DNA from: an uncultured Bacteroidales bacterium
Lineage (GTDB): Bacteria > Bacteroidota > Bacteroidia > Bacteroidales > CAIXZF01
Reading direction: 5' to 3'
DNA length: 53,193 nt
Assembly (NCBI GenBank): GCA_964386485.1
Contig: CAYLTH010000005.1
Span: forward strand, 1-53,193
Shown: piece by piece, positions 41,047-53,059 of the stretch
Numbering within the stretch: the first letter of the stretch is position 1
Layout: the number at the start of each line of letters is the position of its first letter
Notes under the pieces: generated by a model
Database searches by the model: none
Told to the model about the DNA's origin: nothing
The model's input: the letters and a program-made list of their open reading frames with translations, nothing else
Made by a program: the position numbers and the translations under genes

Positions 41047-42579
41047 TCAGGAGTTTTTCGTAATCAGAGAAACTCCTGTCATTTGTTCAGGCTTTTCGAT
41101 TTCCATTATATCCAGGATCGTCGGAGCCAGATCAGCCAGTACACCATCCCTTATACTTTCGATATTATCCCCAATGATAATGCAGGGAACAGGATTGAGT
41201 GAGTGTTCTGTATTGGGTGTTCCATCTTTATTGATCGCAAAATCTGAATTCCCATGGTCAGCAGTGACAATGGCTGTATATCCCATCTGTCTTGCCGTAT
41301 CGATTACCTTTGCGACACAATTGTCAACTGTTTGAACGGCCCGGATAATTGCCTCGTAAACCCCGGTATGACCCACCATATCGCAATTGGCAAAATTCAG
41401 GCAAATAAACTGATATTTATCCTGTTTTAATTCAGCAACTAACTTTTCCGTTATCTCCAAAGCACTCATTTCCGGCTTCAGGTCGTAAGTTGTTACTTTG
41501 GGTGAATTCACAAAAATACGATCCTCGTGATCAAAGGGAAGTTCGCGTCCGCCGGAAAAGAAAAAGGTAACATGGGGATACTTTTCTGTTTCTGCAATCC
41601 GGAGCTGATGAAGATTGTTGGCTGCAATGACTTCTCCCAGTGTATTCTCCACATTATCATTCTGATAAAGAACTTCGATGCCGGAATAGGAATCATCATA
41701 ACTCGTCATAGTCAGATACCGAAGCGGGATTGTATGCATCCCTTCATCGGGCATATCCTTTTGAGTCAGTACGGTTGTTAATTCCCGCATGCGATCTGCC
41801 CGGTAATTAAAACAAACTAACACATCATCCGGCTGAATCAGTCCAATCGGGTTTCCCTGCTCATCAACCGTAACAACCGGCTTAATGAACTCATCTGTAA
41901 CTCCGGCAGCATATGAATTTCGGATTGCTTCCGGAATATTTGTGGAAGGTGTTCCTTTTCCTTCAAGGTATAAATCATAGCCCACTTTCACGCGTTCCCA
42001 GCGCTTATCCCTGTCCATGGAGTAAAACCTTCCAATGAGGGAGGCTATTTTTCCGGTTGATTGACTTAATTTTTCCTGTAATTCTTCAATATAGCGAATT
42101 CCGCTCATGGGGTCAGTATCCCGGCCATCCGTAATAACATGAACAAAGACTTTCTCCAGGTTAAGCTGGTTAGCAAGATCTAAAAGACTGTAAATGTGAT
42201 TATTATATGAATGAACACCTCCATCTGAAACAAGGCCGATCAGATGAAGGGCTTTATCCTGTTGTTTTGCATAGGAAAAGGCTTGGATAAGCTTTTCATT
42301 TTTATAAAACACACCTGTGGAAATATCATTATTAATTTTAACAAGGTCCTGAAAGAGAACACGACCAGCGCCGATATTGGAGTGTCCGACTTCGGAGTTT
42401 CCCATTTGATCGTCCGGAAGTCCGACATGGATACCATGGGCTAATAGTCTGGAATTGGGGAAATTTTTATACAAATTATCGATATACGGAGTATCGGCTG
42501 AAAATATTGCATCTGATTTTGACTTATCACCGATGCCCCACCCATCCAGAATGAGCAGGATAACTTTTTTCTTATTCAT
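41047..42579 (-). CDS. gpmI: 2,3-bisphosphoglycerate-independent phosphoglycerate mutase
   Basis: 510 aa. N-terminus VILLILDGWG, MGNSEVGH, and the C-terminal ADHGN motif. Confidence 0.95.
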   Translation of the reverse strand: MNKKKVILLILDGWGIGDKSKSDAIFSADTPYIDNLYKNFPNSRLLAHGIHVGLPDDQMGNSEVGHSNIGAGRVLFQDLVKINNDISTGVFYKNEKLIQAFSYAKQQDKALHLIGLVSDGGVHSYNNHIYSLLDLANQLNLEKVFVHVITDGRDTDPMSGIRYIEELQEKLSQSTGKIASLIGRFYSMDRDKRWERVKVGYDLYLEGKGTPSTNIPEAIRNSYAAGVTDEFIKPVVTVDEQGNPIGLIQPDDVLVCFNYRADRMRELTTVLTQKDMPDEGMHTIPLRYLTMTSYDDSYSGIEVLYQNDNVENTLGEVIAANNLHQLRIAETEKYPHVTFFFSGGRELPFDHEDRIFVNSPKVTTYDLKPEMSALEITEKLVAELKQDKYQFICLNFANCDMVGHTGVYEAIIRAVQTVDNCVAKVIDTARQMGYTAIVTADHGNSDFAINKDGTPNTEHSLNPVPCIIIGDNIESIRDGVLADLAPTILDIMEIEKPEQMTGVSLITKNS

Positions 42580-42634
42580 AATTCAATTTTTAAAAAAAAT
42601 GGAAGTTGCATAGCAATGCAGGGGAAGAATCAAA

Positions 42635-43438
42635 TTAATGCGGCCAGGGTTTAAATGGTTTAACCCTCACACGGTAAAGAATATACACACCAAAAAGGAT
42701 AAATGGGATACTCAGACTCTGACCCAGATTAATACTCCAATGGCTTTCGATTTCAACCTGGGGTTCTTTCAGAAATTCAAGAATAAATCTCAACCCAAAA
42801 AGGGCAATCAGAAAAATCCCGAACAGTAATCCTTCCTGAAGTGGTTTCTTTGCGCGAAAATAAATAAGAAGCAATGCTATACAAATAGCCAGATAGCCAA
42901 GCGCTTCATAAATTTGGGTAGGATGTCTTGCAACCAGCAAAGGATCAGCCCGATGAAAGATAAAACCCCAGGGAACATCGGTTGGGTATCCAAAAATTTC
43001 GGAGTTCATGAGATTGCCCATCCGGATCAAAAAACCGGCAAGTGCAACAACAATAACGACTCTGTCGATGGTCCATAAATAGGTCATATGCGATCTCCGG
43101 GAAAAGAAATATATCGCTGTCATAATCCCGATTGCAGCCCCGTGACTGGCTAAACCGCCTTCCCAAATCTTCAGTATTTCGAGTGGATTGGCAAGATAGT
43201 AATCCGGTTGATAGAAAAGACAATGCCCCAGTCGTGCCCCGATGACAGTGCCGACTATCATATAAATCGCCAGCTGATCGAGTACTTTGATATCGATCTT
43301 TTCCCGTTTAAAAACCCGGGTTAAAATCATATATCCCAGATAAAAAGAAAGCGCAAAGAACAAACCGTACCATCGGACGGCAAAACCACCGAACCTGAAA
43401 ATTTCGGGATCTACATCCCAGTTTATAAAAGCGAGCAT
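42635..43438 (-). CDS. lgt: Prolipoprotein diacylglyceryl transferase
   Basis: 267-aa polytopic protein. It has the GARLGH and RMGNLMNSEIFG motifs of Lgt. Confidence 0.9.
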   Translation of the reverse strand: MLAFINWDVDPEIFRFGGFAVRWYGLFFALSFYLGYMILTRVFKREKIDIKVLDQLAIYMIVGTVIGARLGHCLFYQPDYYLANPLEILKIWEGGLASHGAAIGIMTAIYFFSRRSHMTYLWTIDRVVIVVALAGFLIRMGNLMNSEIFGYPTDVPWGFIFHRADPLLVARHPTQIYEALGYLAICIALLLIYFRAKKPLQEGLLFGIFLIALFGLRFILEFLKEPQVEIESHWSINLGQSLSIPFILFGVYILYRVRVKPFKPWPH

Positions 43439-43472
43439 ATTCGAATTTTGATTAACAAAAACCTGATTTGTT

Positions 43473-45242
43473 TTATAACTGTATTAATACTACAATTGTT
43501 TTACCGTTTCGGGTAATATCAACATTGCAGGTTTGACCGGCCTGAAGTGTTTTTAGTCTGTCCATGTATTCATAAATGTTCTTTACCGGTTTCCCATTGA
43601 TCGCAGTGATAACATCTCCCTTTAAGAGACCTGCCCTGGAAGCAGGTTTATCTTTTGTTAACCCGTCGATTCTCAATCCCTCGTTTCCGGAAGATGTAAA
43701 GTCTGGTAATATTCCAAGAGTGACTTTAAACCGCTGGCCCATCCGACTGGCCGATTTTGGGCCGGCTTCTTTGAACGTCAGATTTTTTTCTCTGTTTGCA
43801 ATATCAACCAAAACATCATAAACCATGGCAAGAACGTCACGTTCTCCTTCATAATTAATTAGATCGGCATCATCAAGGGGAGTATGATAATCGCCATGTG
43901 CCCCGGTTGTAAAGAAAAATACCGGAATATTCTCGACATAGAAACTGGAATGATCGGAGGCGCCAAAACCTTCCGGGGAGTATTTAAGTTGGAAAGGCCG
44001 GTTCTTTCCGATTGTATTCAGAATTTCTTCTGCTTCGGCAGAGGTCCCTGTTCCACTAATCACTACAGAACCTGAATCCGGAACGAGCCGACCAACCATA
44101 TCCAGGTTAATCATCGCTTTGGTTTTGGCAAGCTCAACAGGGCTGTGTTTTGTATAATATTTTGATCCGAGCAGACCCATTTCTTCACCAGAAAACGCTA
44201 CAAATATTACACTTCTTTTCAGTTTTACTCCTGCATCTTTCAGGGCAGCAGCAATAGCAATCAAACCTGCAGTACCGCTGGCATTGTCATCTGCACCATT
44301 ATGAACAGCTACGGTATCCGGATTACGGGAGCCGGAACCATGCCCTCCCATTCCAAGATGATCATAATGAGCACCTACAACTATATATTCGTCTTTCAAA
44401 ACAGGATCTGTTCCAGGCAGAATCCCGATAACATTCTGAGCCATTGCCTGCACAAGAGAAACCTGAATCGTTGCCATAAGCTTTGCATTGATATCGAAGG
44501 AATAAGGCATGCGTTCCCGGTTTAGTTTAGCTTCGAGGCTATCAATGGTTATACTTTTGGATGTCAGCATCTTATTAGCCAATTTCCTGGTTACATTTAC
44601 AGCAAAAACACCTGCTCTTGCGTCGCTTTTATCAAAATACATCTCGGGAAGGCTGTCCTTTTTGTCAATTATCTTACCAGCAACTAAAATTACACCAGCT
44701 GCACCTTTATCCTTTGCCGCCAAAACTTTTGACCGGTCATCAGTGTACGGAATAAATTTACTGTCGCTTTTATCAAATTCAGGATCTCCTTTAAGAATAA
44801 GAACCCATTTTCCTTTAACATCTATACCATTATAATCGTTCCACTTCAGGCTGTCGGTATTGATATCAAAACCATAACCTGCAAAAACGACACCCGATTC
44901 GAAGTTTCCGTTTTCTGAAAAGGCGAATGGTAAAAAATCAGTTTTGAGAACTGCATCTACATTATTGATTTTGAATTCATTTCGTTCACCAAGTTTAACA
45001 TCTGTATTGACCTGGAAGGGCTGAAAACCTTTCTTTTGATAGAGTTCAAGTCCTGCGTCATTAAAACGGGTGCGGATGTAAGAGGCCGCCATTAAACCTT
45101 CGATAGCACCAGTTTTCCGACCTCTTAAACTATCGGCTGCCAGCACATAAACGTCTTTTCTAAGGCTTTCAACATTAATCTTCTGGGCATATATAAACAT
45201 ACCTGATGAGAACATGACCAGAATCAGAAGTATCTTTTTCAT
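43473..45242 (-). CDS. M28-family peptidase with PA domain and C-terminal PDZ domain
   Basis: Signal peptide. M28 zinc-site region (GADDNASGTAG, FSGEEMGLLGS, GDYHTPLDD). The C-terminal PDZ is GLRIDGLTKDKPASRAGLLKGDVITAINGKPV. Confidence 0.8.
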   Translation of the reverse strand: MKKILLILVMFSSGMFIYAQKINVESLRKDVYVLAADSLRGRKTGAIEGLMAASYIRTRFNDAGLELYQKKGFQPFQVNTDVKLGERNEFKINNVDAVLKTDFLPFAFSENGNFESGVVFAGYGFDINTDSLKWNDYNGIDVKGKWVLILKGDPEFDKSDSKFIPYTDDRSKVLAAKDKGAAGVILVAGKIIDKKDSLPEMYFDKSDARAGVFAVNVTRKLANKMLTSKSITIDSLEAKLNRERMPYSFDINAKLMATIQVSLVQAMAQNVIGILPGTDPVLKDEYIVVGAHYDHLGMGGHGSGSRNPDTVAVHNGADDNASGTAGLIAIAAALKDAGVKLKRSVIFVAFSGEEMGLLGSKYYTKHSPVELAKTKAMINLDMVGRLVPDSGSVVISGTGTSAEAEEILNTIGKNRPFQLKYSPEGFGASDHSSFYVENIPVFFFTTGAHGDYHTPLDDADLINYEGERDVLAMVYDVLVDIANREKNLTFKEAGPKSASRMGQRFKVTLGILPDFTSSGNEGLRIDGLTKDKPASRAGLLKGDVITAINGKPVKNIYEYMDRLKTLQAGQTCNVDITRNGKTIVVLIQL

Positions 45243-45339
45243 AAATTTGATTGTATTTGGGCTACAAAGTTATAATGGAATATGCTCCCAGCCTAAAAAA
45301 ATTATTTTGCCCTGATGAGATAAGGGATCCTGAGGAAAA

Positions 45340-46032
45340 TTAGCCTACCTGACTTATATTATGTAAGGCAGATGGATTCATAATTTCCATCATATCTCCG
45401 TCAACCCGGATAATACCTTCTTCTTTAAATTCTTTCAGAATACGGATGGCACTTTCTTTAGACATCCCGCTTAAATCAGCCAGATCCTGCCTGGAAATAG
45501 TCATTTCAAACGGATTCTCTTCATACACATTTTCGGAAAGGTAAATTAAGGCATCCGCTATTCTTCCCGGCATCTGCTTCTGGGTAAGACTAACAACCTG
45601 CTGGAAATTCATGATGGTTTGTTTGCTGATCCGTTGAATAAATTCATCTGCAAAATCCGGATTCTCACGAATCAGTTGTTTATACGCATTTACATCCACC
45701 AGACAGGCAGAAGTATCAATAAGTGCTGCTGCACTGAAATAGTGACGGTTATCAACGTAAATTCCCGGGCCGAAGATATATGAGTGTGGTTTTACAATTC
45801 CCAATATCAGATTTTTGCCATATCCTTCGATATAAATTTTTGCCAATCCTGAAGTCAGGCATAGATAATGCGGAGAAGGAGTACCTTGTTTGAACATGAT
45901 TTCGCCGGCTTTGAAGTGCACTTCATACCGGTTTCCATCAATCATCTCCAGTTCTGTCCCCGTTAAACATCCAAAAATGGATGATTTATGCTGACAACCC
46001 ACGCAACTATGATTATTGTAATACAATGCCAT
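45340..46032 (-). CDS. Crp/Fnr-family transcriptional regulator with N-terminal Cys cluster (Fnr-like)
   Basis: 230 aa. N-terminal C-x2-C-x8-C (SCVGCQHKSSIFGC) plus an internal Cys (DTSAC), a cNMP-binding-type beta-roll, and a C-terminal HTH (SRQDLADLSGMSKESAIRILKEF). Confidence 0.85.
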   Translation of the reverse strand: MALYYNNHSCVGCQHKSSIFGCLTGTELEMIDGNRYEVHFKAGEIMFKQGTPSPHYLCLTSGLAKIYIEGYGKNLILGIVKPHSYIFGPGIYVDNRHYFSAAALIDTSACLVDVNAYKQLIRENPDFADEFIQRISKQTIMNFQQVVSLTQKQMPGRIADALIYLSENVYEENPFEMTISRQDLADLSGMSKESAIRILKEFKEEGIIRVDGDMMEIMNPSALHNISQVG

Positions 46033-46146
46033 AATAAATGATCACCCTCCAAATTGAAAATCCGCAATACCCAATCCAAAAGTAATAAAAATCATTCATA
46101 TCCATGACAATGATCCAAAAATAATTGACATCCGTCAACAGGTATA

Positions 46147-46160
46147 GTGATATATATCAA
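46147..46160. promoter_or_regulatory. Candidate Crp/Fnr-family operator GTGAT-ATAT-ATCAA
   Basis: It matches the TTGAT-N4-ATCAA consensus at 9 of 10 half-site positions. The core TGATATATATCA is a perfect 12-bp palindrome. It lies in the 281-bp divergent region between the regulator and the cytochrome operon. Confidence 0.4.
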
Positions 46161-46217
46161 TGCTGAAGTCCTTATATATCAGGCATTCCGGGGCTGTCAG
46201 AATCCGATGCATTTGTC

Positions 46218-46225
46218 TACTTTTG
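46218..46225 (+). promoter_or_regulatory. Candidate -7 box (TACTTTTG) for the cytochrome operon
   Basis: It matches TAnnTTTG and sits 89 nt upstream of the ATG at 46314. No TTTG -33 element is present at the expected 19-21 nt spacing, which would fit activator dependence. Confidence 0.3.
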
Positions 46226-46313
46226 CCATGAAAAAATTTCCGGTAAGAGGGTTTTCTTAACCGTTTTCCGGTTTTAATACCTCATAAAAGGAATTTGACG
46301 AAAAACAGCCACT

Positions 46314-47294
46314 ATGATAAACGCAATTTCAGCCATTAATCGATGTTATCCAAAAGTCATCTGGACAGCATTACTCCTTATCTGGTCTCTGGCCACATTT
46401 GCACAGGATGAAACAAAAGAGCGGGTTTATACCAATCGTGAAGACAATGCAAAATGCCTCAAGTGTCATGGAGCCTACAAATTCAATTTCCAATATGAGG
46501 AAAAAGAATTCAAATTTAAAATGCCCTCTGACTACGTAATCGATACGGCGGCGTATTCTGTATCAAATCACTGGAATTTTAAATGTATCGATTGTCACAC
46601 GGATGAATATTTGGTTGCCCCACACGATCAAACTCTTCGTTTTCAATCGATTGCATCATGCATGGATTGTCATGGAGGCGATGAGGTTTATGCCAAGTAC
46701 AATTTTGAAAAGATCGAAACAGAATTTCAGGAAAGTGTTCACAGCAGCCGTCACAGTGAGGATTTCTCATGTTGGAGTTGTCATGATGCACATACCTATA
46801 AAATTAATGCCCGAAATAAGGATCAGCAAATTACAAAAACAGTGGCTTACGACAATGCCATCTGTTTAAGTTGCCATGCAGATAATACGAAATACCAGCT
46901 TATTCGGGATACCATTAACCCGAATGTGATTGCCAAACACGACTGGCTGCCAAACCAACTGAATCATTTTCAGAAAGTCAGGTGTATTGAATGTCACACA
47001 GAAGTAAGCGACTCTACCATGGTTGCCCATAATGTCCGGACTAAAAAATTTGCTGTTAAAAACTGTGTAGAATGCCATTCTACCAATTCAATGCTTTTAA
47101 AAACCTTATTCAAGTTCCAGGTTGAAGAAAGCAAAAAACAAAAAGGCTTTTTTAATGCAAGCATGCTTTCAGACCTCTATGTTGTAGGTGCAAACCGAAA
47201 TATTTATCTGAATTACGCCAGTGCCGGAATTTTCTTTTTGGTTTTACTGGCTCTTGGAGTTCATATATTCTTCAGAATCAAACGCAAATTATAA
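46314..47294 (+). CDS. Heptahaem c-type cytochrome, exported, C-terminal membrane anchor
   Basis: 326 aa. Signal peptide. Seven CxxCH motifs (CLKCH, CIDCH, CMDCH, CWSCH, CLSCH, CIECH, CVECH) and at least seven additional His for bis-His ligation. The C-terminal TM helix is AGIFFLVLLALGVHIFF followed by RIKRKL. Confidence 0.85.
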   Translation: MINAISAINRCYPKVIWTALLLIWSLATFAQDETKERVYTNREDNAKCLKCHGAYKFNFQYEEKEFKFKMPSDYVIDTAAYSVSNHWNFKCIDCHTDEYLVAPHDQTLRFQSIASCMDCHGGDEVYAKYNFEKIETEFQESVHSSRHSEDFSCWSCHDAHTYKINARNKDQQITKTVAYDNAICLSCHADNTKYQLIRDTINPNVIAKHDWLPNQLNHFQKVRCIECHTEVSDSTMVAHNVRTKKFAVKNCVECHSTNSMLLKTLFKFQVEESKKQKGFFNASMLSDLYVVGANRNIYLNYASAGIFFLVLLALGVHIFFRIKRKL

Positions 47295-47299
47295 TAGTT

Positions 47300-47920
47300 A
47301 TGTCAAATAGAATTTTCTTATACCCGATCTGGATTCGTTTATGGCATGTTTTTAATGCCTTGTTATGCCTGGTACTCATTGTTACCGGAGTATCCATGCA
47401 ATACAGTTCTCCACAGAATGCTATAGTTGCCTTTGGTGTTGCCGTAGATTTCCATAACATCTGCGGAATTTTACTTACGATTAATTACGCGATCTTTTTG
47501 ATTGGGAATGCAATTACCCCGAATGGCAAGTTTTATATATTAAAATTTAAAGGGTTTATTGAGCGGTTGATGAAACAAGCCATGTATTACTCTTTTGGAA
47601 TTTTCAAAGGTGAAAAAGCTCCATTCCCGGTAACAGAAAAAAGAAAATTTAATCCTCTTCAGCAATTTACCTACCTCATGATCATGTATTTTGGGGTTCC
47701 CCTTGTTATCCTATCCGGTTGGCTCATGCTATATCCGACTGCTGTACTCCCTTTGCTCACAGGTCTGAATGGAATTATGATTACGGATATTATCCATGTA
47801 ATCATGGGATTTTTTATTACGATCTTTTTGGTCATACATGTGTATTTCTGCACAATTGGCCATACTCCGGTCAGCAATTTCAAAAGTATGGTGAATGGCT
47901 GGCATGATGTTCATGAATAA
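47300..47920 (+). CDS. Dihaem cytochrome b, FdnI/PhsC/Ni-hydrogenase-cytochrome-b family
   Basis: 206 aa with four TM helices. RLWHVFNA in TM1. The His pattern H16, H52, H165, H179 (the last two 14 residues apart) matches the haem ligands of formate dehydrogenase gamma-type cytochromes b. Confidence 0.8.
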   Translation: MSNRIFLYPIWIRLWHVFNALLCLVLIVTGVSMQYSSPQNAIVAFGVAVDFHNICGILLTINYAIFLIGNAITPNGKFYILKFKGFIERLMKQAMYYSFGIFKGEKAPFPVTEKRKFNPLQQFTYLMIMYFGVPLVILSGWLMLYPTAVLPLLTGLNGIMITDIIHVIMGFFITIFLVIHVYFCTIGHTPVSNFKSMVNGWHDVHE

Positions 47921-48929
47921 AAACAACAACATGGAAGAGAACGAAAAAACGGAAAACAAAAGTTCCCGGCGAAATTTCCTGAAATTGGGAGCCGGAATGG
48001 GAGCTGCAGCCCTGGCTACGACCATTGGCACATCCCTTTTATCCAAAGCAGCTGAAAACCCGGCTGCAACCGGGGATACAATAAAAGCACTAACAACCGA
48101 CGGGCAACTCATAGAAATAGACAAAGCCTTTCTGGAAGCTGCCCGGAAGAGTGTATTCATTGGCACAGATGATGCACACAAAGGTATTCCTGACCGAAAA
48201 TTTGTCATGGTGATCGATCTGGCAAAGTGCAAGAATGCACGTAAGTGCGTGGAAGCCTGTCAGCATGGCCATCATTTGCCAAAAGATCACGAATGGATGC
48301 GGGTTTATCTTCTGCAAGACGGAACAAACACATCACCATATTGGTTCCCGAGGCCGTGTTTCCATTGCGATAACCCGATGTGTGTAAGTGTTTGTCCGGT
48401 TGGAGCAACTTTTAAACGAAGCGATGGAATCGTACTCGTTGATAATGAGCGTTGTATAGGATGTAAATTCTGCATGACAGGTTGCCCTTATTCAGTGCGT
48501 GTTTTCCACTGGCATGAACCCCCAAAAGAAACAGAAGAAATTCCCTACTCCCCGGAAATGGGATTCCCTGCTAAAGAAGGAACTGTAGGTAAATGTGTAT
48601 TCTGTCCTGACAAACTTCGCAAAAATGAATTGCCCCGATGTGCAACTGCTTGTCCGATGGGTGTAATTTACTTTGGAGATGTTGTTGAAGATACCGTGAC
48701 CAATGGAACTGAAACCCTGAAGTTCAGTGAACTCATCCGGGATCGTGCGGGGTATCGTCATCTGGAAAATCTGGGTACCGAACCCAGTACCTATTACTTA
48801 CCGGCATATACGCGTCAATTCCCGATTGAAAGAGGATTTGACGGGATAGATGAGGAAGTAAAAGACCGTTACAAGGGTACAAAGGCTTATGATGATTACA
48901 TGAAGAACGCTGAAAAGACGGAGGAATAA
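47895..48929 (+). CDS. TAT-exported four-cluster Fe-S protein (NrfC/PsrB/ActB-ferredoxin-like)
   Basis: Twin-arginine signal SRRNFLKLGAGMGAAALA. The four Cys groups are CKNARKCVEAC, CFHCDNPMCVSVCP, CIGCKFCMTGCP and CVFC-x11-CATACP. Alternative starts are at 47904/47907/47913/47931. The longest form overlaps the cytochrome b gene by 26 nt. Confidence 0.85.
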   Translation: MAGMMFMNKNNNMEENEKTENKSSRRNFLKLGAGMGAAALATTIGTSLLSKAAENPAATGDTIKALTTDGQLIEIDKAFLEAARKSVFIGTDDAHKGIPDRKFVMVIDLAKCKNARKCVEACQHGHHLPKDHEWMRVYLLQDGTNTSPYWFPRPCFHCDNPMCVSVCPVGATFKRSDGIVLVDNERCIGCKFCMTGCPYSVRVFHWHEPPKETEEIPYSPEMGFPAKEGTVGKCVFCPDKLRKNELPRCATACPMGVIYFGDVVEDTVTNGTETLKFSELIRDRAGYRHLENLGTEPSTYYLPAYTRQFPIERGFDGIDEEVKDRYKGTKAYDDYMKNAEKTEE

Positions 48930-50236
48930 TGGACGCTAAAAATCTCATTAAAGAATTTGCCCCGCAAATCGAGAAAACCAGCAAAACCTGGTGGTTTTTC
49001 TTCATCATTTTTTTCATGATGGCTTTATTTGGTGTTTATGGGTTATATACTCAAATTGCCGGAGGTCATATTGTTACGGGTATGCGCGACAATGTAGTCT
49101 GGGGTGTTTATATTGTGAATTTCATCTTTTTCATGGGTGTAAGCTATGCCGGAGCACTTATTTCAGGGGTTCTTCATTTGTTTAAATCCGAGTGGCGAAA
49201 ACCGATTATGCGCATCGGAGAACTTCTGACTGTTATTTCCCTGTTAATTGGGCCAACATTCATTCTGTTTTGCATCGGACGATTGGACAGGCTTCATTTT
49301 TTAATGTTGCATCCCCGGATTCAGTCACCAATTACATGGGACGTAATTGCCATTTCAACCGATATCATCGGATGTTTTATTTTTCTGTATCTTTCCTTTA
49401 TCGAAGATTTCGCTCATTTACGCGATTATGATGGTCTGAAACTAAGTCCCTGGAGAAAAAAACTATATAAAACACTTGCACTCGGCTATACCGGTGCACC
49501 TGAGCAGAAAAAAATACTGGGCCGTATCCGCAACGTTATGGCCGCCATGATTATCGCTATTGCGGTTATCGTGTATTCTGTTCTGGCCTGGATTTTTGGC
49601 GTAACCCTGCAACCTGGCTGGCATAGTACAATTTTCGGCCCTTACTTCGTAATTGCTGCGGTATATTCCGGCGCCGGTGTTCTGATTGTGCTGATGTATA
49701 TTTTCAGAAAAGCCTATCACCTGGAAAAATATATCACCAAAAAACATTTCGTCAATGTTGGTACCATATTGTTGGTTATTGCTGCTTTTTACGCTTACTT
49801 CACTTTTAGTGATTACCTGACAAAATGGTATGGTTCTGTTAAAATGGACAAATTACTGATTGACAAGCTTTTTACAGATTATTACTGGCTTTTCATTTTG
49901 AGTAATTACGGAGGAGTTCTTATCCCTTTAATTGTAATGGGCATACCAAAATTCAGAACCATTAACAGCATAACCTTCATTGCCGTAATTGCTGTCATTG
50001 GATTATGGTTAAACCGATATCTGATTGTTGTTCCTACACTTGAAACACCCTATTTGCCTATTCAGGATACCCGTATAGATTGGATAAAATACAGTGCTAC
50101 CTGGGTTGAATGGGCTTTGATGTTTGGCGGGATCGGTTTGTTCAGTTGCCTGTTTATGCTGGCATCGAAATTTGTGCCCATCATTTCTGTATCTGAAATG
50201 ACAGAAGAAGATCATAAAGAACCCATTTTAGATTAA
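48929..50236 (+). CDS. NrfD/PsrC-family polytopic membrane subunit (large, ActC/HmcC-sized)
   Basis: 435 aa with about 10 hydrophobic helices. The N-terminal region GGHIVTGMRDNVVWGVYIVNFIFFMGVSYAG is typical of NrfD-like proteins. Its ATG overlaps the Fe-S gene stop (TAATG). Confidence 0.85.
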   Translation: MDAKNLIKEFAPQIEKTSKTWWFFFIIFFMMALFGVYGLYTQIAGGHIVTGMRDNVVWGVYIVNFIFFMGVSYAGALISGVLHLFKSEWRKPIMRIGELLTVISLLIGPTFILFCIGRLDRLHFLMLHPRIQSPITWDVIAISTDIIGCFIFLYLSFIEDFAHLRDYDGLKLSPWRKKLYKTLALGYTGAPEQKKILGRIRNVMAAMIIAIAVIVYSVLAWIFGVTLQPGWHSTIFGPYFVIAAVYSGAGVLIVLMYIFRKAYHLEKYITKKHFVNVGTILLVIAAFYAYFTFSDYLTKWYGSVKMDKLLIDKLFTDYYWLFILSNYGGVLIPLIVMGIPKFRTINSITFIAVIAVIGLWLNRYLIVVPTLETPYLPIQDTRIDWIKYSATWVEWALMFGGIGLFSCLFMLASKFVPIISVSEMTEEDHKEPILD

Positions 50237-50246
50237 AGGAGGACGT

Positions 50247-51122
50247 ATGAAAAATAATATTCTTATCCTGCTCAGCCTTATTTTTTGTCTGGGTATTACA
50301 AGACCGGCTCTCTCACAGGACGACACGAGTGCTCCTGCCTCCTATCGGGCAAGCCTTCAGATGGTTTACACCAAAACGGTTGCAGCCAAATCATTTGCCA
50401 TCAGCCTAAGTTATATCAATAATGATCCCTGGCCGGTTGCCGGGGCAAAAATAAAAATTACGGCCGGACCTGAAAAACAGATTTCTCTTGGTGAAGTAAT
50501 CACTGAACCCAACGGAAAAATTGTTTTTAACCTAAAAGCAGAAGCCTCACTGCCAAAAGATCCGGAAGGATACTATCTTGTCCAGGCAGAATATGTTGGC
50601 AACGACAGCATCCAGCCGGCAGAATCTGAAGTAAAATTTCAGGATTTTACACTATCAATGGAGCTTGATGAAGCTGATTCTTCCCGTACAATCAACATAA
50701 AATGCTTCCAGTTAAACGACAAAGGTCAGGAAATCCCTCCATCAGAAATGCTGGTGAGCGTTTATGTCGCCCGTATGTTCAGTAATCTTAAGATCGGAGA
50801 AGTAACCCTTGATTCAACAGGAATTGGCACTTTTGAATTTCCATTTGACCTGGTAGGTGATTCGATTGGTAACCTGACCATTGTTACGCGGATTGATGAA
50901 CACGAAGTCTATGGAAATGTAGAAGTTCGTCAAACTGTCAAATGGGGGATTCCCACATTTCACAAAGTACCTGTTGGCAACAGAGCCTTATGGACACAAA
51001 TTGCCCCAACCTGGATGATAATAACCCTAATGATCATGTTGGCAGGTGTTTGGGGTCATTATGCCTATGCTATTATTAATATCCGCCGGATAAAAAAAGC
51101 AGGTGAAAAAACGAAGGCCTGA
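50247..51122 (+). CDS. Exported beta-rich protein with C-terminal TM anchor, unknown function
   Basis: 291 aa. Signal peptide MKNNILILLSLIFCLGITRPALSQ. Two beta-sandwich-like segments, with no Cys/His cofactor motifs. The C-terminal helix is WMIITLMIMLAGVWGHYAYAIINI followed by RRIKK. It starts 10 nt after the NrfD-like gene. Confidence 0.6.
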   Translation: MKNNILILLSLIFCLGITRPALSQDDTSAPASYRASLQMVYTKTVAAKSFAISLSYINNDPWPVAGAKIKITAGPEKQISLGEVITEPNGKIVFNLKAEASLPKDPEGYYLVQAEYVGNDSIQPAESEVKFQDFTLSMELDEADSSRTINIKCFQLNDKGQEIPPSEMLVSVYVARMFSNLKIGEVTLDSTGIGTFEFPFDLVGDSIGNLTIVTRIDEHEVYGNVEVRQTVKWGIPTFHKVPVGNRALWTQIAPTWMIITLMIMLAGVWGHYAYAIINIRRIKKAGEKTKA

Positions 51123-51143
51123 TGCAATTTTTTTCTTAATTTT

Positions 51144-51159
51144 GGCTTGATTTTTGAAA
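51144..51159 (+). promoter_or_regulatory. Sigma-54-type -24/-12 promoter candidate (TGGCTTG-ATTT-TTGAA), copy 1
   Basis: TGGC and TTG are at the canonical spacing of TGGCACG-N4-TTGCW. The -12 C is replaced by A. The site is homologous to the better copy at 51730. Confidence 0.3.
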
Positions 51160-51202
51160 TACAACTCTTAACAACCTAACCATAAATTAAAAACACACAA
51201 TC

Positions 51203-51604
51203 ATGAAACTAAAAATGTTAGCCTACGCAATGGTCCTGATTTTTGGATCAGCTATGTTACTGTCAATGACTTCTGCCCCACAGGCAAAGCCCTGGAACAC
51301 TCCTGACAAGTACATGAAAATGAAAGCTCCCAAATCAACTCCGGAATCTGTAAAAGCCGGCAAAGAACTCTATGCAAAATTTTGCAAATCCTGCCATGGT
51401 GTTACAGGTAAAGGTGACGGTACAAAAGCTGCCAGTCTGAAAACAAAAATGCTTCCACTTGGAGACAAAGCATTCAAATCACTCGTTGATGGTGACAAAT
51501 ACTACAGGTCATTTATCGGACGTGACGAGATGCCGAACTTCGAAAAGAAAGTTGCTGATGAAGCAGCTCGTTGGTCAATCATTCATTACATGGCTACCCT
51601 GTAA
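51203..51604 (+). CDS. Monohaem class-I cytochrome c, exported (copy 1)
   Basis: 133 aa. Signal peptide, a single CKSCHG haem site, and a distal Met candidate in GRDEMPNF. Confidence 0.85.
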   Translation: MKLKMLAYAMVLIFGSAMLLSMTSAPQAKPWNTPDKYMKMKAPKSTPESVKAGKELYAKFCKSCHGVTGKGDGTKAASLKTKMLPLGDKAFKSLVDGDKYYRSFIGRDEMPNFEKKVADEAARWSIIHYMATL

Positions 51605-51623
51605 TTCTGATTCAAGATTTTCG

Positions 51624-51658
51624 AAGAGGCTGTCTCCTAAAGGCAGCCTCTTTTTTTT
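51624..51658 (+). terminator. Intrinsic terminator after cytochrome c copy 1
   Basis: Stem AAGAGGCTG / CAGCCTCTT (9 bp) with an 11-nt loop, followed by T8. Confidence 0.75.
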
Positions 51659-51729
51659 ACCCATTAACAAATATTTACAATTATATATCTTGATTTCTAC
51701 ATACATAATAAGAATAATGCATACTTTCG

Positions 51730-51745
51730 TGGCCTGGTTTTTGCA
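51730..51745 (+). promoter_or_regulatory. Sigma-54-type -24/-12 promoter candidate (TGGCCTG-GTTT-TTGCA), copy 2
   Basis: It matches TGGC and TTGCA of the TGGCACG-N4-TTGCW consensus with exact spacing. The -12 G lies 41 nt upstream of the ATG at 51784. Confidence 0.5.
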
Positions 51746-51783
51746 AACCATGAACTTATTAATAACCAATTAAAAAAGAAACC

Positions 51784-52185
51784 ATGAAATTAAAAATGAT
51801 TGCTTACGCAATGGTTCTGGTATTCGGATCAACTTTATTGTTGTCCATGACCAGTACACAGGATTCTAAACCCTGGAAAACACCTGACAAATACATGAAG
51901 ATGAAAGCTCCGAAATCAACACCGGAGACTGTAAAAGCAGGGAAAGAACTGTATGCTAAGTTCTGCAAATCATGCCATGGCGCTACCGGTAAAGGTGATG
52001 GAACCAAAGCTGCCAGTCTGAAGACCAAAGTTAATTCCTTCTCAGAAAAATCATTTAAATCAGTTACCGACGGAGATAAGTATTTCAGATCATTTATTGG
52101 AAGAGATGAAATGCCAAACTTCGAAAAGAAAGTTCCTGAAGAAGCAAGCCGCTGGGCTATCATTCATTACATCAACACGCTGTAA
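51784..52185 (+). CDS. Monohaem class-I cytochrome c, exported (copy 2)
   Basis: 133 aa. It is a paralogue of the 51203 gene, with the same CKSCHG site and GRDEMPNF motif. Confidence 0.85.
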   Translation: MKLKMIAYAMVLVFGSTLLLSMTSTQDSKPWKTPDKYMKMKAPKSTPETVKAGKELYAKFCKSCHGATGKGDGTKAASLKTKVNSFSEKSFKSVTDGDKYFRSFIGRDEMPNFEKKVPEEASRWAIIHYINTL

Positions 52186-52198
52186 TCATTCCAGCCAA

Positions 52199-52237
52199 TA
52201 AAAAGAGGGCGCCTCAGAGGTGAGGCGCCCTTTTTTT
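52199..52237. terminator. Bidirectional intrinsic terminator between convergent genes
   Basis: Perfect 11-bp GC-rich stem AGGGCGCCTCA / TGAGGCGCCCT with the loop GAGG. It is flanked by an A-rich run upstream and T7 downstream, so it reads as a terminator on both strands. Confidence 0.8.
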
Positions 52238-52267
52238 ATATGCTAAACAAGATGAATCCAAAAATAA

Positions 52268-53059
52268 TTAACGAACAACCACTTTTTCCTGGTGGCGAAC
52301 AGCACCTTGCTGGATATCAAGAATATAGACTCCACTATTTAACCCTTCAGGTAGTTTAACAGACTCGTGATGCATCCCGCCTGCCAAGCTCGTATTTAAC
52401 AGTCTGGCTACTTCGCGTCCGGTAAGATCAAACAAACGAAGCTGCACAGCGCCCTGAGTTTCCATTGCAAAATCAACATTGATCATATTATTCACCGGAT
52501 TTGGGTATACTGAAAAACCACCACTAACTGAGTTTTCCATCAAACCAGTTGTACTTTCGGGTATGATCAGTGTACAGAGTTTTGTTACAGGTTCATTTAA
52601 GGTAAAGGCTCCATAAAAAGTCACATTGCCGGTTCCTGCAACAGGGGCTGTCCAGGAAAATGTTTTTACATAAGGATTCGCAGTGGAGCCGGAATTTTGA
52701 GTCACTGCTTTATTGCCATTGACAAGATGGGTTCCTGCTCCTGCGGTCAGGGTGCCAACCAATGCTCCGGTCGGTGTTTGAGGACTTACTTCAAACCCTT
52801 TTTTACTGGAACCGGTCAGGGTAATTGTTATTGTATAGGTAGTTCCTGGTACATAACCTCCCGGAGGAACATCAGAAGTCATATAACCGGTAGCACTGGT
52901 TGCCGAACCACCATGGCATTGAACACAATTTTTGGCATCTCCGGGAGATCCGGTATAGCCTCCGGGGCTGCCTCCGGGATACTTAGTATCTCCACCATAC
53001 GACTGTAATAATAAGGCCAGTGGAACCAAGCCTGTAATTAAAAGGTAGTTTCTTTTCAT
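52268..53059 (-). CDS. T9SS-sorted secreted protein with a single N-terminal CxxCH haem-binding motif
   Basis: 263 aa. Signal peptide. A Gly/Pro-rich segment leads to NCVQCHGG. A beta-rich domain of about 130 aa follows. The C-terminal T9SS sorting domain is FSVYPNPVNNMINVDF...SGVYILDIQQGAVRHQEKVVVR. Confidence 0.75.
   Translation of the reverse strand: MKRNYLLITGLVPLALLLQSYGGDTKYPGGSPGGYTGSPGDAKNCVQCHGGSATSATGYMTSDVPPGGYVPGTTYTITITLTGSSKKGFEVSPQTPTGALVGTLTAGAGTHLVNGNKAVTQNSGSTANPYVKTFSWTAPVAGTGNVTFYGAFTLNEPVTKLCTLIIPESTTGLMENSVSGGFSVYPNPVNNMINVDFAMETQGAVQLRLFDLTGREVARLLNTSLAGGMHHESVKLPEGLNSGVYILDIQQGAVRHQEKVVVR

What the first reader, a model, noticed from the sequence alone, without database searches (positions are those of the whole stretch)
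45340..53059. Candidate undescribed respiratory/electron-export module: heptahaem cytochrome c, cytochrome b, TAT Fe-S, NrfD-like and unknown anchored protein, plus two soluble cytochromes c, with no catalytic subunit
What the sequence shows: a tightly packed plus-strand run (junctions +5, -26, -1 and +10 nt) encodes five proteins.
- A 326-aa exported protein with seven CxxCH motifs and a C-terminal TM anchor.
- A 206-aa four-helix dihaem cytochrome b of the FdnI/PhsC type.
- A TAT-signal protein with four ferredoxin-type Cys groups.
- A 435-aa NrfD-like membrane protein.
- A 291-aa exported beta-rich protein with a TM anchor.
Two monohaem class-I cytochrome c genes follow, and a convergent T9SS cargo protein with a CxxCH motif closes the region.
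What is absent: there is no molybdopterin subunit, no NrfA/MccA/Otr-type enzyme and no NosZ or nosDFY. The gene content and order also differ from Alternative Complex III, because there is no ActB-type molybdopterin-like domain and no ActD/E/F.
Established knowledge: NrfC/NrfD-type pairs are quinone-pool modules in Psr, Nrf, Ttr, ACIII, Qrc and Hmc/Nhc complexes.
The closest analogy I can recall is the Geobacter Cbc-type inner-membrane clusters. There a b-type cytochrome plus a seven-haem c-type cytochrome sit beside Fe-S and NrfD-like genes and feed periplasmic cytochromes during extracellular electron transfer. That recollection needs verification.
Inference: this is a catalytic-subunit-free quinol:cytochrome c oxidoreductase. 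It could be a bc1/ACIII substitute feeding a terminal oxidase under low oxygen. It could instead be the inner-membrane entry to an electron-export route that ends at a T9SS-displayed haem protein.
Basis: partly seen in the sequence, partly recalled or inferred. Interest (0 to 1): 0.8.

Follow-up and report, generated by a model that had tools for sequence, protein, structure and literature searches.

The report
Bacteroidota CbcBA-like quinol oxidase with ACIII-like add-on
This is a conserved, probably oxygen-regulated gene cluster of sediment Bacteroidota that joins a Geobacter-type "CbcBA" cytochrome bc unit to an iron-sulfur/membrane pair related to Alternative Complex III; it most likely passes electrons from membrane quinols to periplasmic cytochromes without any catalytic enzyme subunit, and this combination is widespread but undescribed in the papers I could search.

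Summary
All the described genes are present, with the predicted domains and all seven haem sites, which are invariant in 37 homologues.

- **Seven-haem and cytochrome b pair.** It is a distant homologue of Geobacter CbcA and CbcB. Joshi et al. 2021 had already noted such homologues in Bacteroidetes.
Geobacter Cbc5 has no Fe-S or NrfD genes.
- **NrfD protein.** It has ten predicted helices and is closest to ActC of Alternative Complex III.
- **Fe-S protein.** It has 15 conserved Cys in a 3+4+4+4 pattern, matching what I recall of ActB and QrcC.
- **291-aa protein.** It is two Ig-like domains plus a strongly conserved transmembrane helix.

The Fe-S/NrfD/291-aa trio always follows the cytochrome pair (18 of 18 loci) and is always followed by a monohaem cytochrome c (41 of 41). 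The pair occurs without the trio in 34 of 60 species.

Close relatives show only sugar-metabolism, T9SS-cargo and unknown-function genes past the window end, so no catalytic subunit is hidden there. An FNR-type regulator and FNR boxes point to low-oxygen induction. In 58 of 59 other species an outer-membrane barrel gene, usually with lipoprotein cytochrome genes, lies upstream, which favours electron export.

Verdict: a new variant of a known kind, of moderate interest.

The parts
45340..46032 (-). Crp/Fnr-family regulator, divergent from the operon. It has an FNR-like Cys set: C10 and C13 near the N-terminus plus C110.
   Evidence: PF00027 and PF13545 hits. C10, C13 and C110 are invariant in 77 cluster-linked homologues.
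46125..46138 (.). FNR-box-like perfect palindrome TTGACatccGTCAA in the divergent intergenic region.
   Evidence: The motif class occurs in 39 of 54 regulator-operon spacers of relatives, at 3.3 per kb against 0.16 per kb background.
46147..46160 (.). Second FNR-box-like site, GTGATatatATCAA, with one mismatch.
46314..47294 (+). CbcA-like seven-haem cytochrome c with a signal peptide and a C-terminal TM anchor.
   Evidence: Its only significant PDB sequence hit is 28pb_A, which I infer to be G. sulfurreducens CbcA.
47300..47920 (+). CbcB-like dihaem cytochrome b with 4 TMH. His16, 52, 166 and 180 are conserved.
   Evidence: PF01292 at 92 bits. The PhsC model scores 187.9, below its cut-off of 204. 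Conservation is. tblastn to a Desulfuromonadales-type cbcB gives 31-38% identity, E 3e-24.
47895..48929 (+). TAT-exported four-cluster Fe-S protein; the probable true start is 47931. It has 15 conserved Cys in a 3+4+4+4 pattern.
48929..50236 (+). NrfD-family membrane subunit of the ActC type with 10 predicted TMH and no cofactor motif.
   Evidence: 6f0k_C E 4.5e-62 and 6btm_C E 1.3e-53, aligned over the full length. It is very strongly conserved.
50247..51122 (+). Family-specific single-pass subunit: signal peptide, two Ig-like beta-sandwich domains and a highly conserved C-terminal TM helix containing GVWGHY.
   Evidence: 1177 clusters at 50% identity. It always directly follows the NrfD gene (39 of 39).
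51203..51604 (+). Monohaem class-I cytochrome c, copy 1.
   Evidence: A homologue directly follows the 291-aa gene in 41 of 41 loci.
51623..51653 (+). Terminator-like hairpin with 13 pairs followed by a T-run, located after cytochrome c copy 1.
51784..52185 (+). Monohaem class-I cytochrome c, copy 2. It is 80% identical to copy 1, so it is a tandem duplicate.
52206..52231 (.). GC-rich palindromic hairpin between the convergent genes; terminator-like.
52268..53059 (-). T9SS-sorted 'choice-of-anchor V' protein with one conserved CxxCH; a candidate cell-surface haem protein.
   Evidence: NF041895 at 64.7 bits against a cut-off of 42, plus the T9SS sorting domain. CxxCH is kept in 6 of 6 homologues that lie next to such clusters. 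In L118 the gene is directly upstream of the seven-haem gene on the same strand.

Best explanation
The region encodes an oxygen- or redox-regulated, membrane-bound menaquinol:cytochrome c oxidoreductase module with no substrate-converting subunit. It is built from two known kinds of unit.

**Unit 1.** A CbcBA-type pair: a four-helix dihaem cytochrome b takes electrons from the quinol pool and passes them to a membrane-anchored seven-haem cytochrome c.

**Unit 2.** An ACIII-like pair: an ActC-type ten-helix NrfD subunit oxidises quinol, and a TAT-exported Fe-S protein, probably with one [3Fe-4S] and three [4Fe-4S] clusters, carries the electrons. This unit also has a family-specific single-pass subunit with two Ig-like domains, which I take to be a structural clamp.

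**Proposed flow.** Unit 2 has no multihaem cytochrome of its own and is never found away from unit 1. I therefore propose that its Fe-S wire feeds the same seven-haem cytochrome. From there, electrons leave through the monohaem class-I cytochromes c encoded directly downstream.

**Regulation.** An FNR-type regulator with FNR boxes in the divergent promoter region probably switches the operon on when oxygen is low.

**Destination.** The most likely destination is a periplasmic or outer-surface acceptor, that is, electron export. Almost all relatives encode an outer-membrane barrel upstream, most of them with lipoprotein cytochromes. In this lineage those genes are missing, and a T9SS-anchored monohaem protein sits next to the cluster instead.

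**Shown versus inferred.** Shown: gene content, family assignments, motif conservation, synteny statistics and motif enrichment. Inferred: quinol oxidation, the order of electron flow, whether the five proteins form one complex, regulation by oxygen, and the final acceptor.
For: **Parts and families.**

**CbcBA homology.**
- The only significant PDB sequence hit of the seven-haem protein is 28pb_A (E 3.9e-4 for the single sequence, 3.6e-5 for the profile), with haem motifs in the same order.
- A 2026 review lists a CbcA structure as 'PDB 2BPB'.
- Against a locus of Desulfuromonadales type, with sigma-54 regulators upstream and the same A-then-B order, the window proteins give E 5e-13 (A) and 3e-24 (B).
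- Joshi et al. 2021 report cbcBA homologues in Prolixibacter, Marinilabiliales and Labilibaculum.

**Haem ligands.** Seven CxxCH and seven further His are invariant. Four His of the cytochrome b are conserved.

**Fe-S protein.** It has 15 conserved Cys in a 3+4+4+4 pattern and a conserved twin-arginine motif.

**Synteny.**
- A-B-C-D lie upstream of E in 18 of 18 loci.
- NrfD lies directly upstream of E in 39 of 39.
- A monohaem cytochrome c lies directly downstream of E in 41 of 41.

**No catalytic gene.** None appears in the flanks of the close relatives L083 and L084, or of L030 and L079.

**Regulation.** The Cys triad is invariant in 77 regulators. FNR boxes are enriched about 20-fold in 39 of 54 spacers.

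**Outer-membrane context in relatives.** A DUF5777 barrel gene lies upstream in 58 of 59 species, with a 5-6-haem lipoprotein that hits an MtrC/MtrF-domain model and a small monohaem lipoprotein.

**Precedent.** Catalytic-subunit-free NrfCD units act as quinol dehydrogenases: SirCD and the M. roseus NrfCD discussion.
Against: - There are no experimental data for any member of this Bacteroidota cluster.
- Similarity to Geobacter-type CbcA is low (23-30% identity). That 28pb is CbcA rests on a near-match of the PDB code in a review.
- The A-B pair works without C-D-E in 34 of 60 species, and the trio has been lost repeatedly. The five proteins therefore need not form one complex.
- In L058 the trio lies apart on the other strand, with a Crp-family regulator gene beside it.
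- The window lineage lacks the outer-membrane genes, so export across the outer membrane is unexplained here.
- The monohaem cytochromes are of the type that also serves cbb3 and caa3 oxidases.
- The FNR-box count over the whole window is not above chance. The argument rests on position and on conservation in relatives.
Confidence: 0.6

Rival explanations
1. There are two separate, co-regulated complexes rather than one. The first is CbcAB alone, a quinol:multihaem cytochrome oxidoreductase. The second is a minimal ACIII-like quinol:cytochrome c oxidoreductase made of the Fe-S protein, the ActC-like subunit and the Ig-domain subunit. The second complex would reduce the monohaem cytochrome c directly, as ActE is reduced in ACIII.
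For: - A-B occurs without C-D-E in 34 of 60 species, and the trio was lost repeatedly.
- In L058, C-D-E-cytochrome c forms its own unit on the opposite strand, with a Crp-family regulator gene beside it.
- A monohaem cytochrome c always follows E (41 of 41).
- One natural NrfD-E fusion links D with E, not with A or B.
Against: - The trio was never found away from an A-B pair (18 of 18 and 39 of 39).
- In the known NrfCD-type units discussed and in my own recollection (NrfB, ActA, QrcA, CbcS, DsrJ), a multihaem partner stands between the Fe-S protein and soluble carriers. The only such partner here is the seven-haem protein.
Confidence: 0.35
2. The module is a low-oxygen substitute for bc1 or ACIII. 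It would pass electrons through the monohaem cytochromes c to a cbb3- or caa3-type oxidase, not out of the cell.
For: - The NrfD subunit is closest to ActC.
- The cytochromes c match PF13442 and PF00034, the class that serves as oxidase donors.
- FNR-type control is typical of micro-oxic respiration.
- The window lineage lacks the outer-membrane genes.
Against: - No oxidase genes lie in the window or in any of the flanks inspected.
- In 58 of 59 other species the cluster is joined to an outer-membrane barrel gene, in most of them with lipoprotein multihaem cytochrome genes.
- Geobacter CbcA is a very low-potential cytochrome, with an apparent midpoint of -279 mV. That suits low-potential acceptors better than oxygen.
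Confidence: 0.25
3. The module runs in reverse, as an electron-uptake route. It would carry electrons from extracellular Fe(II) or other donors through cytochromes into the quinone pool.
For: - The split arrangement in relatives, a small monohaem lipoprotein plus a small barrel, is reminiscent of Cyc2-type iron oxidases. This is my own recollection, set.
- By my recollection, Qrc-type NrfCD units work as quinone reductases.
Against: - The habitat and lineage are anoxic-sediment Bacteroidales, Prolixibacteraceae and Marinilabiliales.
- FNR-type induction fits the disposal of electrons by anaerobic heterotrophs.
- The Geobacter homologue works in the export direction.
Confidence: 0.08
4. The genes encode the membrane anchor and electron-transfer subunits of an ordinary reductase (Psr/Phs/Ttr, Nrf or Nos type) whose catalytic subunit is encoded elsewhere in the genome.
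For: - The cytochrome b scores close to the PhsC model (187.9 against a cut-off of 204).
- The Fe-S protein scores close to the DsrO model (172.7 against 200).
- A NosD-like beta-helix T9SS protein lies next to the cluster in relatives.
Against: - No equivalog cut-off is reached.
- No molybdopterin, NrfA or NosZ gene appears in any of roughly 160 related loci inspected, up to 10 kb on either side.
- The NosD-like protein carries a T9SS sorting domain, and no nosZ, nosF or nosY gene accompanies it.
Confidence: 0.07

Closest known systems
Geobacter sulfurreducens CbcBA, the core of the Cbc5 cluster cbcEDCBA
   Same: - A seven-haem cytochrome c with a C-terminal TM anchor is followed directly by a four-helix dihaem cytochrome b of the 'thiosulfate reductase-like' PF01292 type.
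- There is detectable sequence homology.
- There is no catalytic subunit.
- A divergent dedicated regulator is present.
   Different: - The regulator is of the Crp/Fnr type, not the sigma-54 BccR.
- Downstream lie Fe-S, NrfD and Ig-domain genes, not the dodecahaem CbcC, CbcD and CbcE.
- Identity is only about 23-38%.
Alternative Complex III (ActABCDEF; structures 6F0K and 6BTM)
   Same: - The NrfD subunit aligns over its full length with ActC (E 4.5e-62) and has 10 predicted TMH.
- The Fe-S protein aligns with the C-terminal domain of ActB and has a 3+4+4+4 Cys pattern.
- A multihaem cytochrome plus a monohaem cytochrome form the output.
   Different: - There is no molybdopterin-like ActB N-terminal domain.
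- There is no second NrfD (ActF) and no ActD.
- The multihaem protein is CbcA-like with a C-terminal anchor, not ActA.
- A dihaem cytochrome b is added, which ACIII lacks.
Catalytic-subunit-free NrfCD-type quinol dehydrogenases: Shewanella SirCD, Geobacter Cbc4 (CbcSTU) and E. coli NrfBCD
   Same: A TAT-exported Fe-S protein and an NrfD-family membrane protein oxidise quinol and hand electrons to periplasmic multihaem cytochromes.
   Different: - The NrfD here is of the ActC type.
- An extra Ig-domain TM subunit is always present.
- The unit is physically tied to a bc-type pair.
Hmc and DsrMKJOP complexes of sulfur-metabolising bacteria
   Same: They are the only characterised complexes I can recall that combine a c-type cytochrome, an NrfC-like Fe-S protein, an NrfD-like subunit and a b-type cytochrome. 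DsrO and DsrP are the best NCBIfam matches, though below cut-off.
   Different: - There is no cytoplasmic HdrD-like subunit (DsrK or HmcF).
- The cytochrome b here is PF01292, not the NarI type.
- The setting is different.

Membership tests
CbcBA (Geobacter Cbc5 core) | Seven-haem cytochrome c with a C-terminal transmembrane anchor | tested here: met
   Seven CxxCH motifs are invariant in 37 homologues, and a TM helix lies at 302-320.
CbcBA (Geobacter Cbc5 core) | Adjacent four-helix dihaem cytochrome b (PF01292, PhsC-like) directly downstream of cbcA | tested here: met
   PF01292 at 92 bits, 4 TMH and four conserved His. A-B adjacency holds in all 80 genome loci.
CbcBA (Geobacter Cbc5 core) | Sequence homology to Geobacter-type CbcA and CbcB | tested here: met
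   PDB 28pb_A gives E 3.9e-4 (single sequence) and 3.6e-5 (profile). tblastn to L166 gives 5e-13 for A and 3e-24 for B. The homology is distant. Orthology by reciprocal best hit or by tree was not tested.
CbcBA (Geobacter Cbc5 core) | Divergent sigma-54 regulator BccR | tested here: not met
   The divergent regulator here is of the Crp/Fnr type. Sigma-54 regulators flank the Desulfuromonadales-type loci L165 and L166.
CbcBA (Geobacter Cbc5 core) | Cluster partners CbcC (12 haems), CbcD and CbcE | tested here: not met
   The only multihaem ORF in the window is the seven-haem protein.
CbcBA (Geobacter Cbc5 core) | Required for reduction of low-potential extracellular acceptors | not testable with these tools
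   This needs genetics and electrochemistry.
Alternative Complex III | ActC-type NrfD subunit with 10 TMH | tested here: met
   6f0k_C gives E 4.5e-62 over residues 15-424 of 435, and there are 10 hydropathy peaks.
Alternative Complex III | ActB with an N-terminal molybdopterin-like domain fused to the Fe-S domain | tested here: not met
   The protein has 344 aa and aligns only to ActB residues 797-1026.
Alternative Complex III | Second NrfD-like subunit ActF, plus ActD | tested here: not met
   There is a single NrfD ORF in the window. The 291-aa protein has no PDB sequence hit.
Alternative Complex III | One [3Fe-4S] and three [4Fe-4S] clusters in the Fe-S subunit | tested here: inconclusive
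   There are 15 conserved Cys in a 3+4+4+4 pattern, which fits. The cluster types need spectroscopy, and the ActB pattern is from my own recollection.
NrfCD-type quinol dehydrogenase without catalytic subunit (SirCD, Cbc4, NrfBCD) | TAT Fe-S four-cluster protein plus NrfD-family membrane protein, with no molybdopterin or other catalytic gene in the neighbourhood | tested here: met
   The flanks of relatives L083, L084, L030 and L079 hold sugar-metabolism, peptidase and other housekeeping genes, a T9SS cargo gene and genes of unknown function.
NrfCD-type quinol dehydrogenase without catalytic subunit (SirCD, Cbc4, NrfBCD) | Quinol oxidation with electron transfer to periplasmic cytochromes | not testable with these tools
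   This needs a biochemical assay.
DsrMKJOP / Hmc | Cytoplasmic HdrD-like subunit and NarI-type cytochrome b; equivalog scores for DsrO and DsrP | tested here: not met
   DsrO scores 172.7 against a cut-off of 200, and DsrP scores 69.9 against 350. There is no CCG-domain gene in the cluster, and the cytochrome b is PF01292.
Thiosulfate/polysulfide reductase (PhsABC/PsrABC) | Molybdopterin catalytic subunit; PhsC equivalog score | tested here: not met
   PhsC scores 187.9 against a cut-off of 204. No PhsA or PsrA gene appears in the window or in related loci.

The most novel reading that the evidence does not exclude
The five proteins form one hybrid respiratory complex of a new architecture. 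A single seven-haem wire would be fed by two different quinol-reactive membrane subunits: a dihaem cytochrome b, and an ActC-type, possibly proton-translocating, NrfD subunit acting through a [3Fe-4S]/[4Fe-4S] chain. The Ig-domain subunit would hold them together. Such a complex could shift between an energy-conserving route and a dissipative route, or couple the two quinone sites in a loop, according to acceptor potential. It would be the main inner-membrane gate for extracellular electron transfer in anaerobic Bacteroidota.
Probability: 0.25. Interest if true: 0.8.

Novelty: new variant of a known kind. Interest (0 to 1): 0.55.

Why it matters
**Breadth.** Relatives of the seven-haem protein occur in at least 573 GTDB species. 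The best 80 are almost all Bacteroidota: Bacteroidales, Lentimicrobiaceae, Marinilabiliales, Prolixibacteraceae and Saprospiraceae. The sources are sediments, wetlands, groundwater and digesters. The Ig-domain subunit family alone has 1177 clusters at 50% identity.

**Ecology.** These organisms are usually treated as fermenters. A conserved, FNR-controlled route from the quinol pool to periplasmic and outer-membrane cytochromes would make them candidate metal, humic-substance or electrode respirers. That would change carbon- and iron-cycle budgets for anoxic habitats.

**Bioenergetics.** A CbcBA-type unit joined to an ACIII-type unit is a natural experiment on how the cytochrome b and NrfD quinol sites divide labour. 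The bioenergetics of CbcBA are unresolved even in Geobacter.

Tried and rejected
1. **Source contig.** An exact-protein look-up of the T9SS protein to find the source contig found nothing on record.
2. **My own initial recollection.** I recalled that Geobacter CbcC, CbcD and CbcE are Fe-S, NrfD and membrane proteins. The papers showed this to be wrong, so I dropped the claim of a full Cbc5 orthologue.
3. **Structure of the seven-haem protein.** The AF2 model had pLDDT 66, and Foldseek against the PDB gave nothing below E = 1. It could not serve as a structural test of CbcA homology.
4. **Fold of the 291-aa protein.** Foldseek returned only generic Ig/FnIII and ribophorin-like matches, with no functional lead.
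5. **Fetching G. sulfurreducens CbcA.** A search with the PDB-derived fragment returned only 59-65% identical relatives. I used a frameshift-ridden Desulfuromonadales-type contig instead.
6. **Catalytic gene just outside the window.** Rejected from the flanks of close relatives.
7. **Nos-cluster reading (NosGH).** Rejected. There is no nosZ, nosF or nosY gene, and the NosD-like protein in relatives is a T9SS cargo.
8. **Literature.** Searches for a description of this five-gene arrangement in Bacteroidota found none in the held library. The NrfD-family review does not list it.
9. **FNR-box count.** The count over the whole window is not above chance. Only the positional and comparative test was informative.

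Full report

Yes.
- The 326-aa protein (46314-47294) hits multihaem c3/c7-type models.
- The 206-aa protein (47300-47920) hits PF01292.
- The 344-aa protein (47895-48929) has a TAT signal plus Fer4_11.
- The 435-aa protein (48929-50236) hits PF03916 NrfD.
- The 291-aa protein (50247-51122) hits nothing.
- The two 133-aa proteins are monohaem class-I cytochromes c.
- The convergent protein (52268-53059, minus strand) has a T9SS sorting domain.

The only CxxCH-bearing ORFs in the whole window are these four cytochrome genes. Hydropathy gives one C-terminal helix in the seven-haem protein, four helices in the cytochrome b, ten in the NrfD protein, and a signal peptide plus one C-terminal helix in the 291-aa protein.

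Three corrections apply.
- The interval opens with a divergent Crp/Fnr-family regulator (45340-46032, minus strand) that the finding omits.
- The 26-nt overlap between the cytochrome b and Fe-S genes probably comes from choosing the longest ORF. In the close relative L083 the Fe-S gene starts at the equivalent of Met13 (window 47931), ten bases after the cytochrome b stop.
- Terminator-like hairpins lie after the first cytochrome c gene (51623-51653) and between the convergent genes (52206-52231). Only weak stems of 5-6 pairs lie inside the five-gene run, which is compatible with co-transcription.

**2. What the first two genes are**

The seven-haem protein belongs to a large and unusually well-conserved family. 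The search gave 2100 hits, the best 120 at about 50% identity and the same length. In 37 aligned members all seven CxxCH motifs are invariant. So are seven further His (H86, H104, H143, H160, H209, H218, H239), enough for bis-His ligation of seven haems. H317 and R321 in the membrane helix are also invariant.

Its only significant sequence match in the PDB is chain 28pb_A, a 278-residue 'Cytochrome c'. The E-value is 3.9e-4 for the single sequence and 3.6e-5 for the family profile, and the haem motifs are in the same order. A 2026 review lists a crystal structure of G. sulfurreducens CbcA as 'PDB 2BPB' (Antunes et al. 2026). I take 28PB and '2BPB' to be the same entry. This is an inference from the near-identical code.

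I fetched relatives of that PDB sequence and their contigs. They lie beside sigma-54 regulators, as described for Geobacter cbcBA, and are followed by a PF01292 cytochrome b. By tblastn against that locus, the window seven-haem protein gives 28-30% identity (E 5e-13). The window cytochrome b gives 31-38% identity over its whole length (E 3e-24), in the same gene order.

Joshi, Chan and Bond (2021) had already written that cbcBA-like clusters 'annotated as hypothetical proteins' occur in Bacteroidetes (Prolixibacter, Marinilabiliales, Labilibaculum). The first two genes are therefore a distant CbcA/CbcB pair, and that part is not new.

**3. What the next three genes are**

Geobacter Cbc5 consists of CbcA, CbcB, the dodecahaem CbcC, the dihaem HAMP protein CbcD and the membrane protein CbcE. 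It has no Fe-S or NrfD gene.

- **NrfD protein.** It is closest to ActC of Alternative Complex III: Rhodothermus 6F0K chain C at E 4.5e-62, aligned over residues 15-424 of 435, and Flavobacterium 6BTM chain C at E 1.3e-53. ActF is far weaker, and PsrC does not appear even at E = 1.
- **Fe-S protein.** It matches PsrB, ArrB and the C-terminal domain of ActB (residues 797-1026). It falls just below the DsrO equivalog cut-off, at 172.7 against 200. Across 62 homologues the twin-arginine motif and exactly 15 Cys in a 3+4+4+4 pattern are conserved. By my recollection of ActB and QrcC, this pattern is expected for one [3Fe-4S] plus three [4Fe-4S] clusters.
- **291-aa protein.** It has no annotated relative. 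The search gave 269 hits, all nameless or 'hypothetical', and the family has 1177 clusters at 50% identity. The AF2 model (pLDDT 84.8) shows two tandem Ig-like sandwiches (33-131 and 135-231) and a helix at 255-290. Foldseek returns only generic Ig/FnIII folds. Its most conserved part is the membrane helix and the segment before it: W249, P254, W256, M257 and G267-V-W-G-H-Y272. That is what one expects of an integral subunit of a membrane complex.
- **A possible fusion.** One database protein of 740 aa is an NrfD-291-aa fusion, with the NrfD part 57% identical to the window protein. This hints at physical association, unless it is a frameshift artefact.

**4. Comparative genomics**

A scan of one genome per GTDB species found at least 573 species with a relative of the seven-haem protein. 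The best 80 are almost all Bacteroidota, and none is more than 55% identical to the window protein. I called ORFs in these loci and labelled them with the window proteins.

With the seven-haem gene as anchor:
- Of 60 loci with enough downstream sequence, 26 have cytochrome b, Fe-S, NrfD and the 291-aa gene. The other 34 have the cytochrome b without the NrfD and 291-aa genes.
- In 58 of 59 loci a DUF5777 'membrane bound beta barrel' gene lies just upstream.
- That gene is usually accompanied by a 5-6-haem lipoprotein, which hits the MtrC/MtrF domain II/IV model above its cut-off, and by a small lipoprotein with one haem motif (CxxCH in 71 of 84, Cx4CH in 13).
- Cytochrome c biogenesis genes (ResB/CcsA) often follow.

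With the 291-aa protein as anchor in metagenome contigs:
- All four other genes lie upstream in 18 of 18 loci that are long enough.
- The NrfD gene is directly upstream in 39 of 39.
- A monohaem cytochrome c gene is directly downstream in 41 of 41.

On a neighbour-joining tree of the seven-haem proteins, loci with and without the trio are interleaved. Some trio-less loci keep a truncated Fe-S gene (L056, L073, L074, L080). The trio therefore seems to have been lost many times. It depends on the CbcAB-like pair, while the pair does not depend on it.

**5. The missing catalytic subunit**

Contigs from close relatives (L083 and L084, whose 291-aa protein is 76-77% identical to the window's) have the same arrangement as the window on both sides. 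They show what lies past the window end: the T9SS haem protein, a T9SS NosD-like beta-helix protein, galactokinase, an unknown protein, aldose epimerase, DUF6599 and DUF362.

In L030 and L079 the cluster sits beside the same peptidase M28 gene. In L030 the lgt, phosphatase and methylmalonyl-CoA mutase genes follow as well. In both loci the cluster is inverted relative to these flanking genes.

None of the roughly 160 related loci I inspected holds a molybdopterin, NrfA or NosZ gene next to the cluster. The second refutation criterion, a catalytic gene just outside the window, is therefore very unlikely to apply.

**6. Regulation**

The divergent regulator has C10, C13 and C110 invariant in 77 cluster-linked homologues. 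By my knowledge of E. coli FNR (C20, C23, C29, C122), this resembles the N-terminal-plus-central Cys set of that oxygen sensor.

The 281-nt spacer holds a perfect palindrome TTGACatccGTCAA (46125-46138) and a one-mismatch FNR box (46147-46160). Over the whole window the motif count is not above chance. In the equivalent spacers of relatives, however, the motif occurs in 39 of 54 cases. That is 3.3 per kb against 0.16 per kb in all fetched sequence. Low-oxygen induction is thus a reasonable inference. It has not been shown.

**7. The T9SS protein**

It matches the NCBIfam 'choice-of-anchor V' domain at 64.7 bits against a cut-off of 42. Homologues lie next to such clusters in three different arrangements:
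- convergent after the cytochromes c in the window, L083 and L084;
- directly upstream of the regulator in L005 and L020;
- directly upstream of the seven-haem gene on the same strand in L118.

All keep the CxxCH and a GSPGGYTGSPGD motif.

The window's clade (window, L083, L030, L079, L118) is the one that lacks the DUF5777 and lipoprotein-cytochrome genes. The surface haem protein may stand in for them. How electrons would cross the outer membrane here is unexplained.

**8. Most likely mechanism**

I propose an FNR-controlled menaquinol:cytochrome c oxidoreductase module without a catalytic subunit.
- Quinol is oxidised by the dihaem cytochrome b and by the ActC-type subunit.
- The Fe-S chain and the b haems both deliver electrons to the membrane-anchored seven-haem cytochrome.
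- The monohaem cytochromes c carry electrons onward.
- The Ig-domain subunit is structural.

Catalytic-subunit-free NrfCD units acting as quinol dehydrogenases have precedent in SirCD, Cbc4 and NrfBCD. Electron export is the favoured destination because of the outer-membrane genes in relatives and the low potential of Geobacter CbcA, which has an apparent midpoint of -279 mV. Delivery to a high-affinity oxidase remains a serious rival. So does the possibility of two separate complexes.

**9. Novelty and score**

- Known: the CbcBA kinship and its presence in Bacteroidetes.
- Apparently undescribed: the obligate attachment of an ACIII-type Fe-S/NrfD pair plus a new Ig-domain subunit and a monohaem cytochrome c, the Fnr-type control, and the DUF5777-based outer-membrane set. 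This holds for the literature I could search, including the NrfD-family review.

It is a new variant of known kinds, built from recognisable modules, widespread and testable in cultivable relatives.

Noticed in passing
window 3116-3122 and 3288-4148: The release factor 2 (prfB) ORF lacks its N-terminal part, since the PCRF match starts at profile position 70. A CTTTGAC motif lies upstream. This looks like the classical programmed +1 frameshift site of prfB.
   Followed up: partly
window 19860-25933: The core type IX secretion and gliding genes lie here in one minus-strand run: PorP/SprF, a GldK-like FGE-sulfatase-domain protein, GldL, GldM and GldN. This confirms a Bacteroidota host able to export the T9SS haem protein.
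   Followed up: partly
L002 7052-9447, and equivalent positions in 58 of 59 related loci: Relatives carry, just upstream of the seven-haem gene, a 5-6-haem lipoprotein with an MtrC/MtrF-domain hit, a small monohaem lipoprotein and a DUF5777 beta-barrel. The small lipoprotein has CxxCH in 71 of 84 cases and the unusual Cx4CH in 13. This is a candidate Bacteroidota porin-cytochrome conduit, and I found no description of it in the papers I searched.
   Followed up: partly
P0328 (database protein, 740 aa): This is a natural fusion of the ActC-like NrfD protein (57% identical to the window protein) with the 291-aa Ig-domain protein. It could be a real fusion or a frameshift artefact.
   Followed up: partly
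window 47262-47276 (H317 and R321 of the seven-haem protein) and 51057-51059 (H271 of the 291-aa protein): Both single-pass membrane helices carry an invariant His. The cytochrome b already has its four haem ligands, so the role of these His residues is unexplained.
   Followed up: no
L083 12843-15059; L079 626-2884: A T9SS-sorted protein with NosD and right-handed beta-helix domains lies next to the cluster in two different arrangements within the window's clade. By synteny it should lie just past the window end.
   Followed up: partly
L126 11360-14172, and the same in L087, L091, L092, L109, L129, L137, L138, L146 and L151: Many related loci carry a second, divergent NrfD gene, an Fe-S gene and a small multihaem cytochrome gene a few kb downstream. 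The set resembles Cbc4 or NrfBCD. A further multihaem cytochrome, a second Crp-family regulator and a fused ResB-CcsA gene also lie there.
   Followed up: partly
L002 16937-20280; L005, L015, L034, L040, L042, L051 and L055: A second DUF5777 barrel gene is paired with a YceI-like protein and PSCyt1-type cytochrome-like proteins near the cluster. This suggests that DUF5777 barrels regularly partner with haem proteins.
   Followed up: no
L030 and L079 compared with window 38882-46032: The whole cluster is inverted relative to the conserved peptidase M28 flank between the window/L083 lineage and L030/L079; in L030 the lgt, phosphatase and methylmalonyl-CoA mutase genes of that flank are also present. 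L030 and L079 lack the adjacent Crp/Fnr gene.
   Followed up: partly
L056, L073, L074 and L080: Truncated Fe-S genes of about 230 aa lie directly after the cytochrome b gene, with the NrfD and 291-aa genes missing. They appear to be remnants of repeated loss of the trio.
   Followed up: partly
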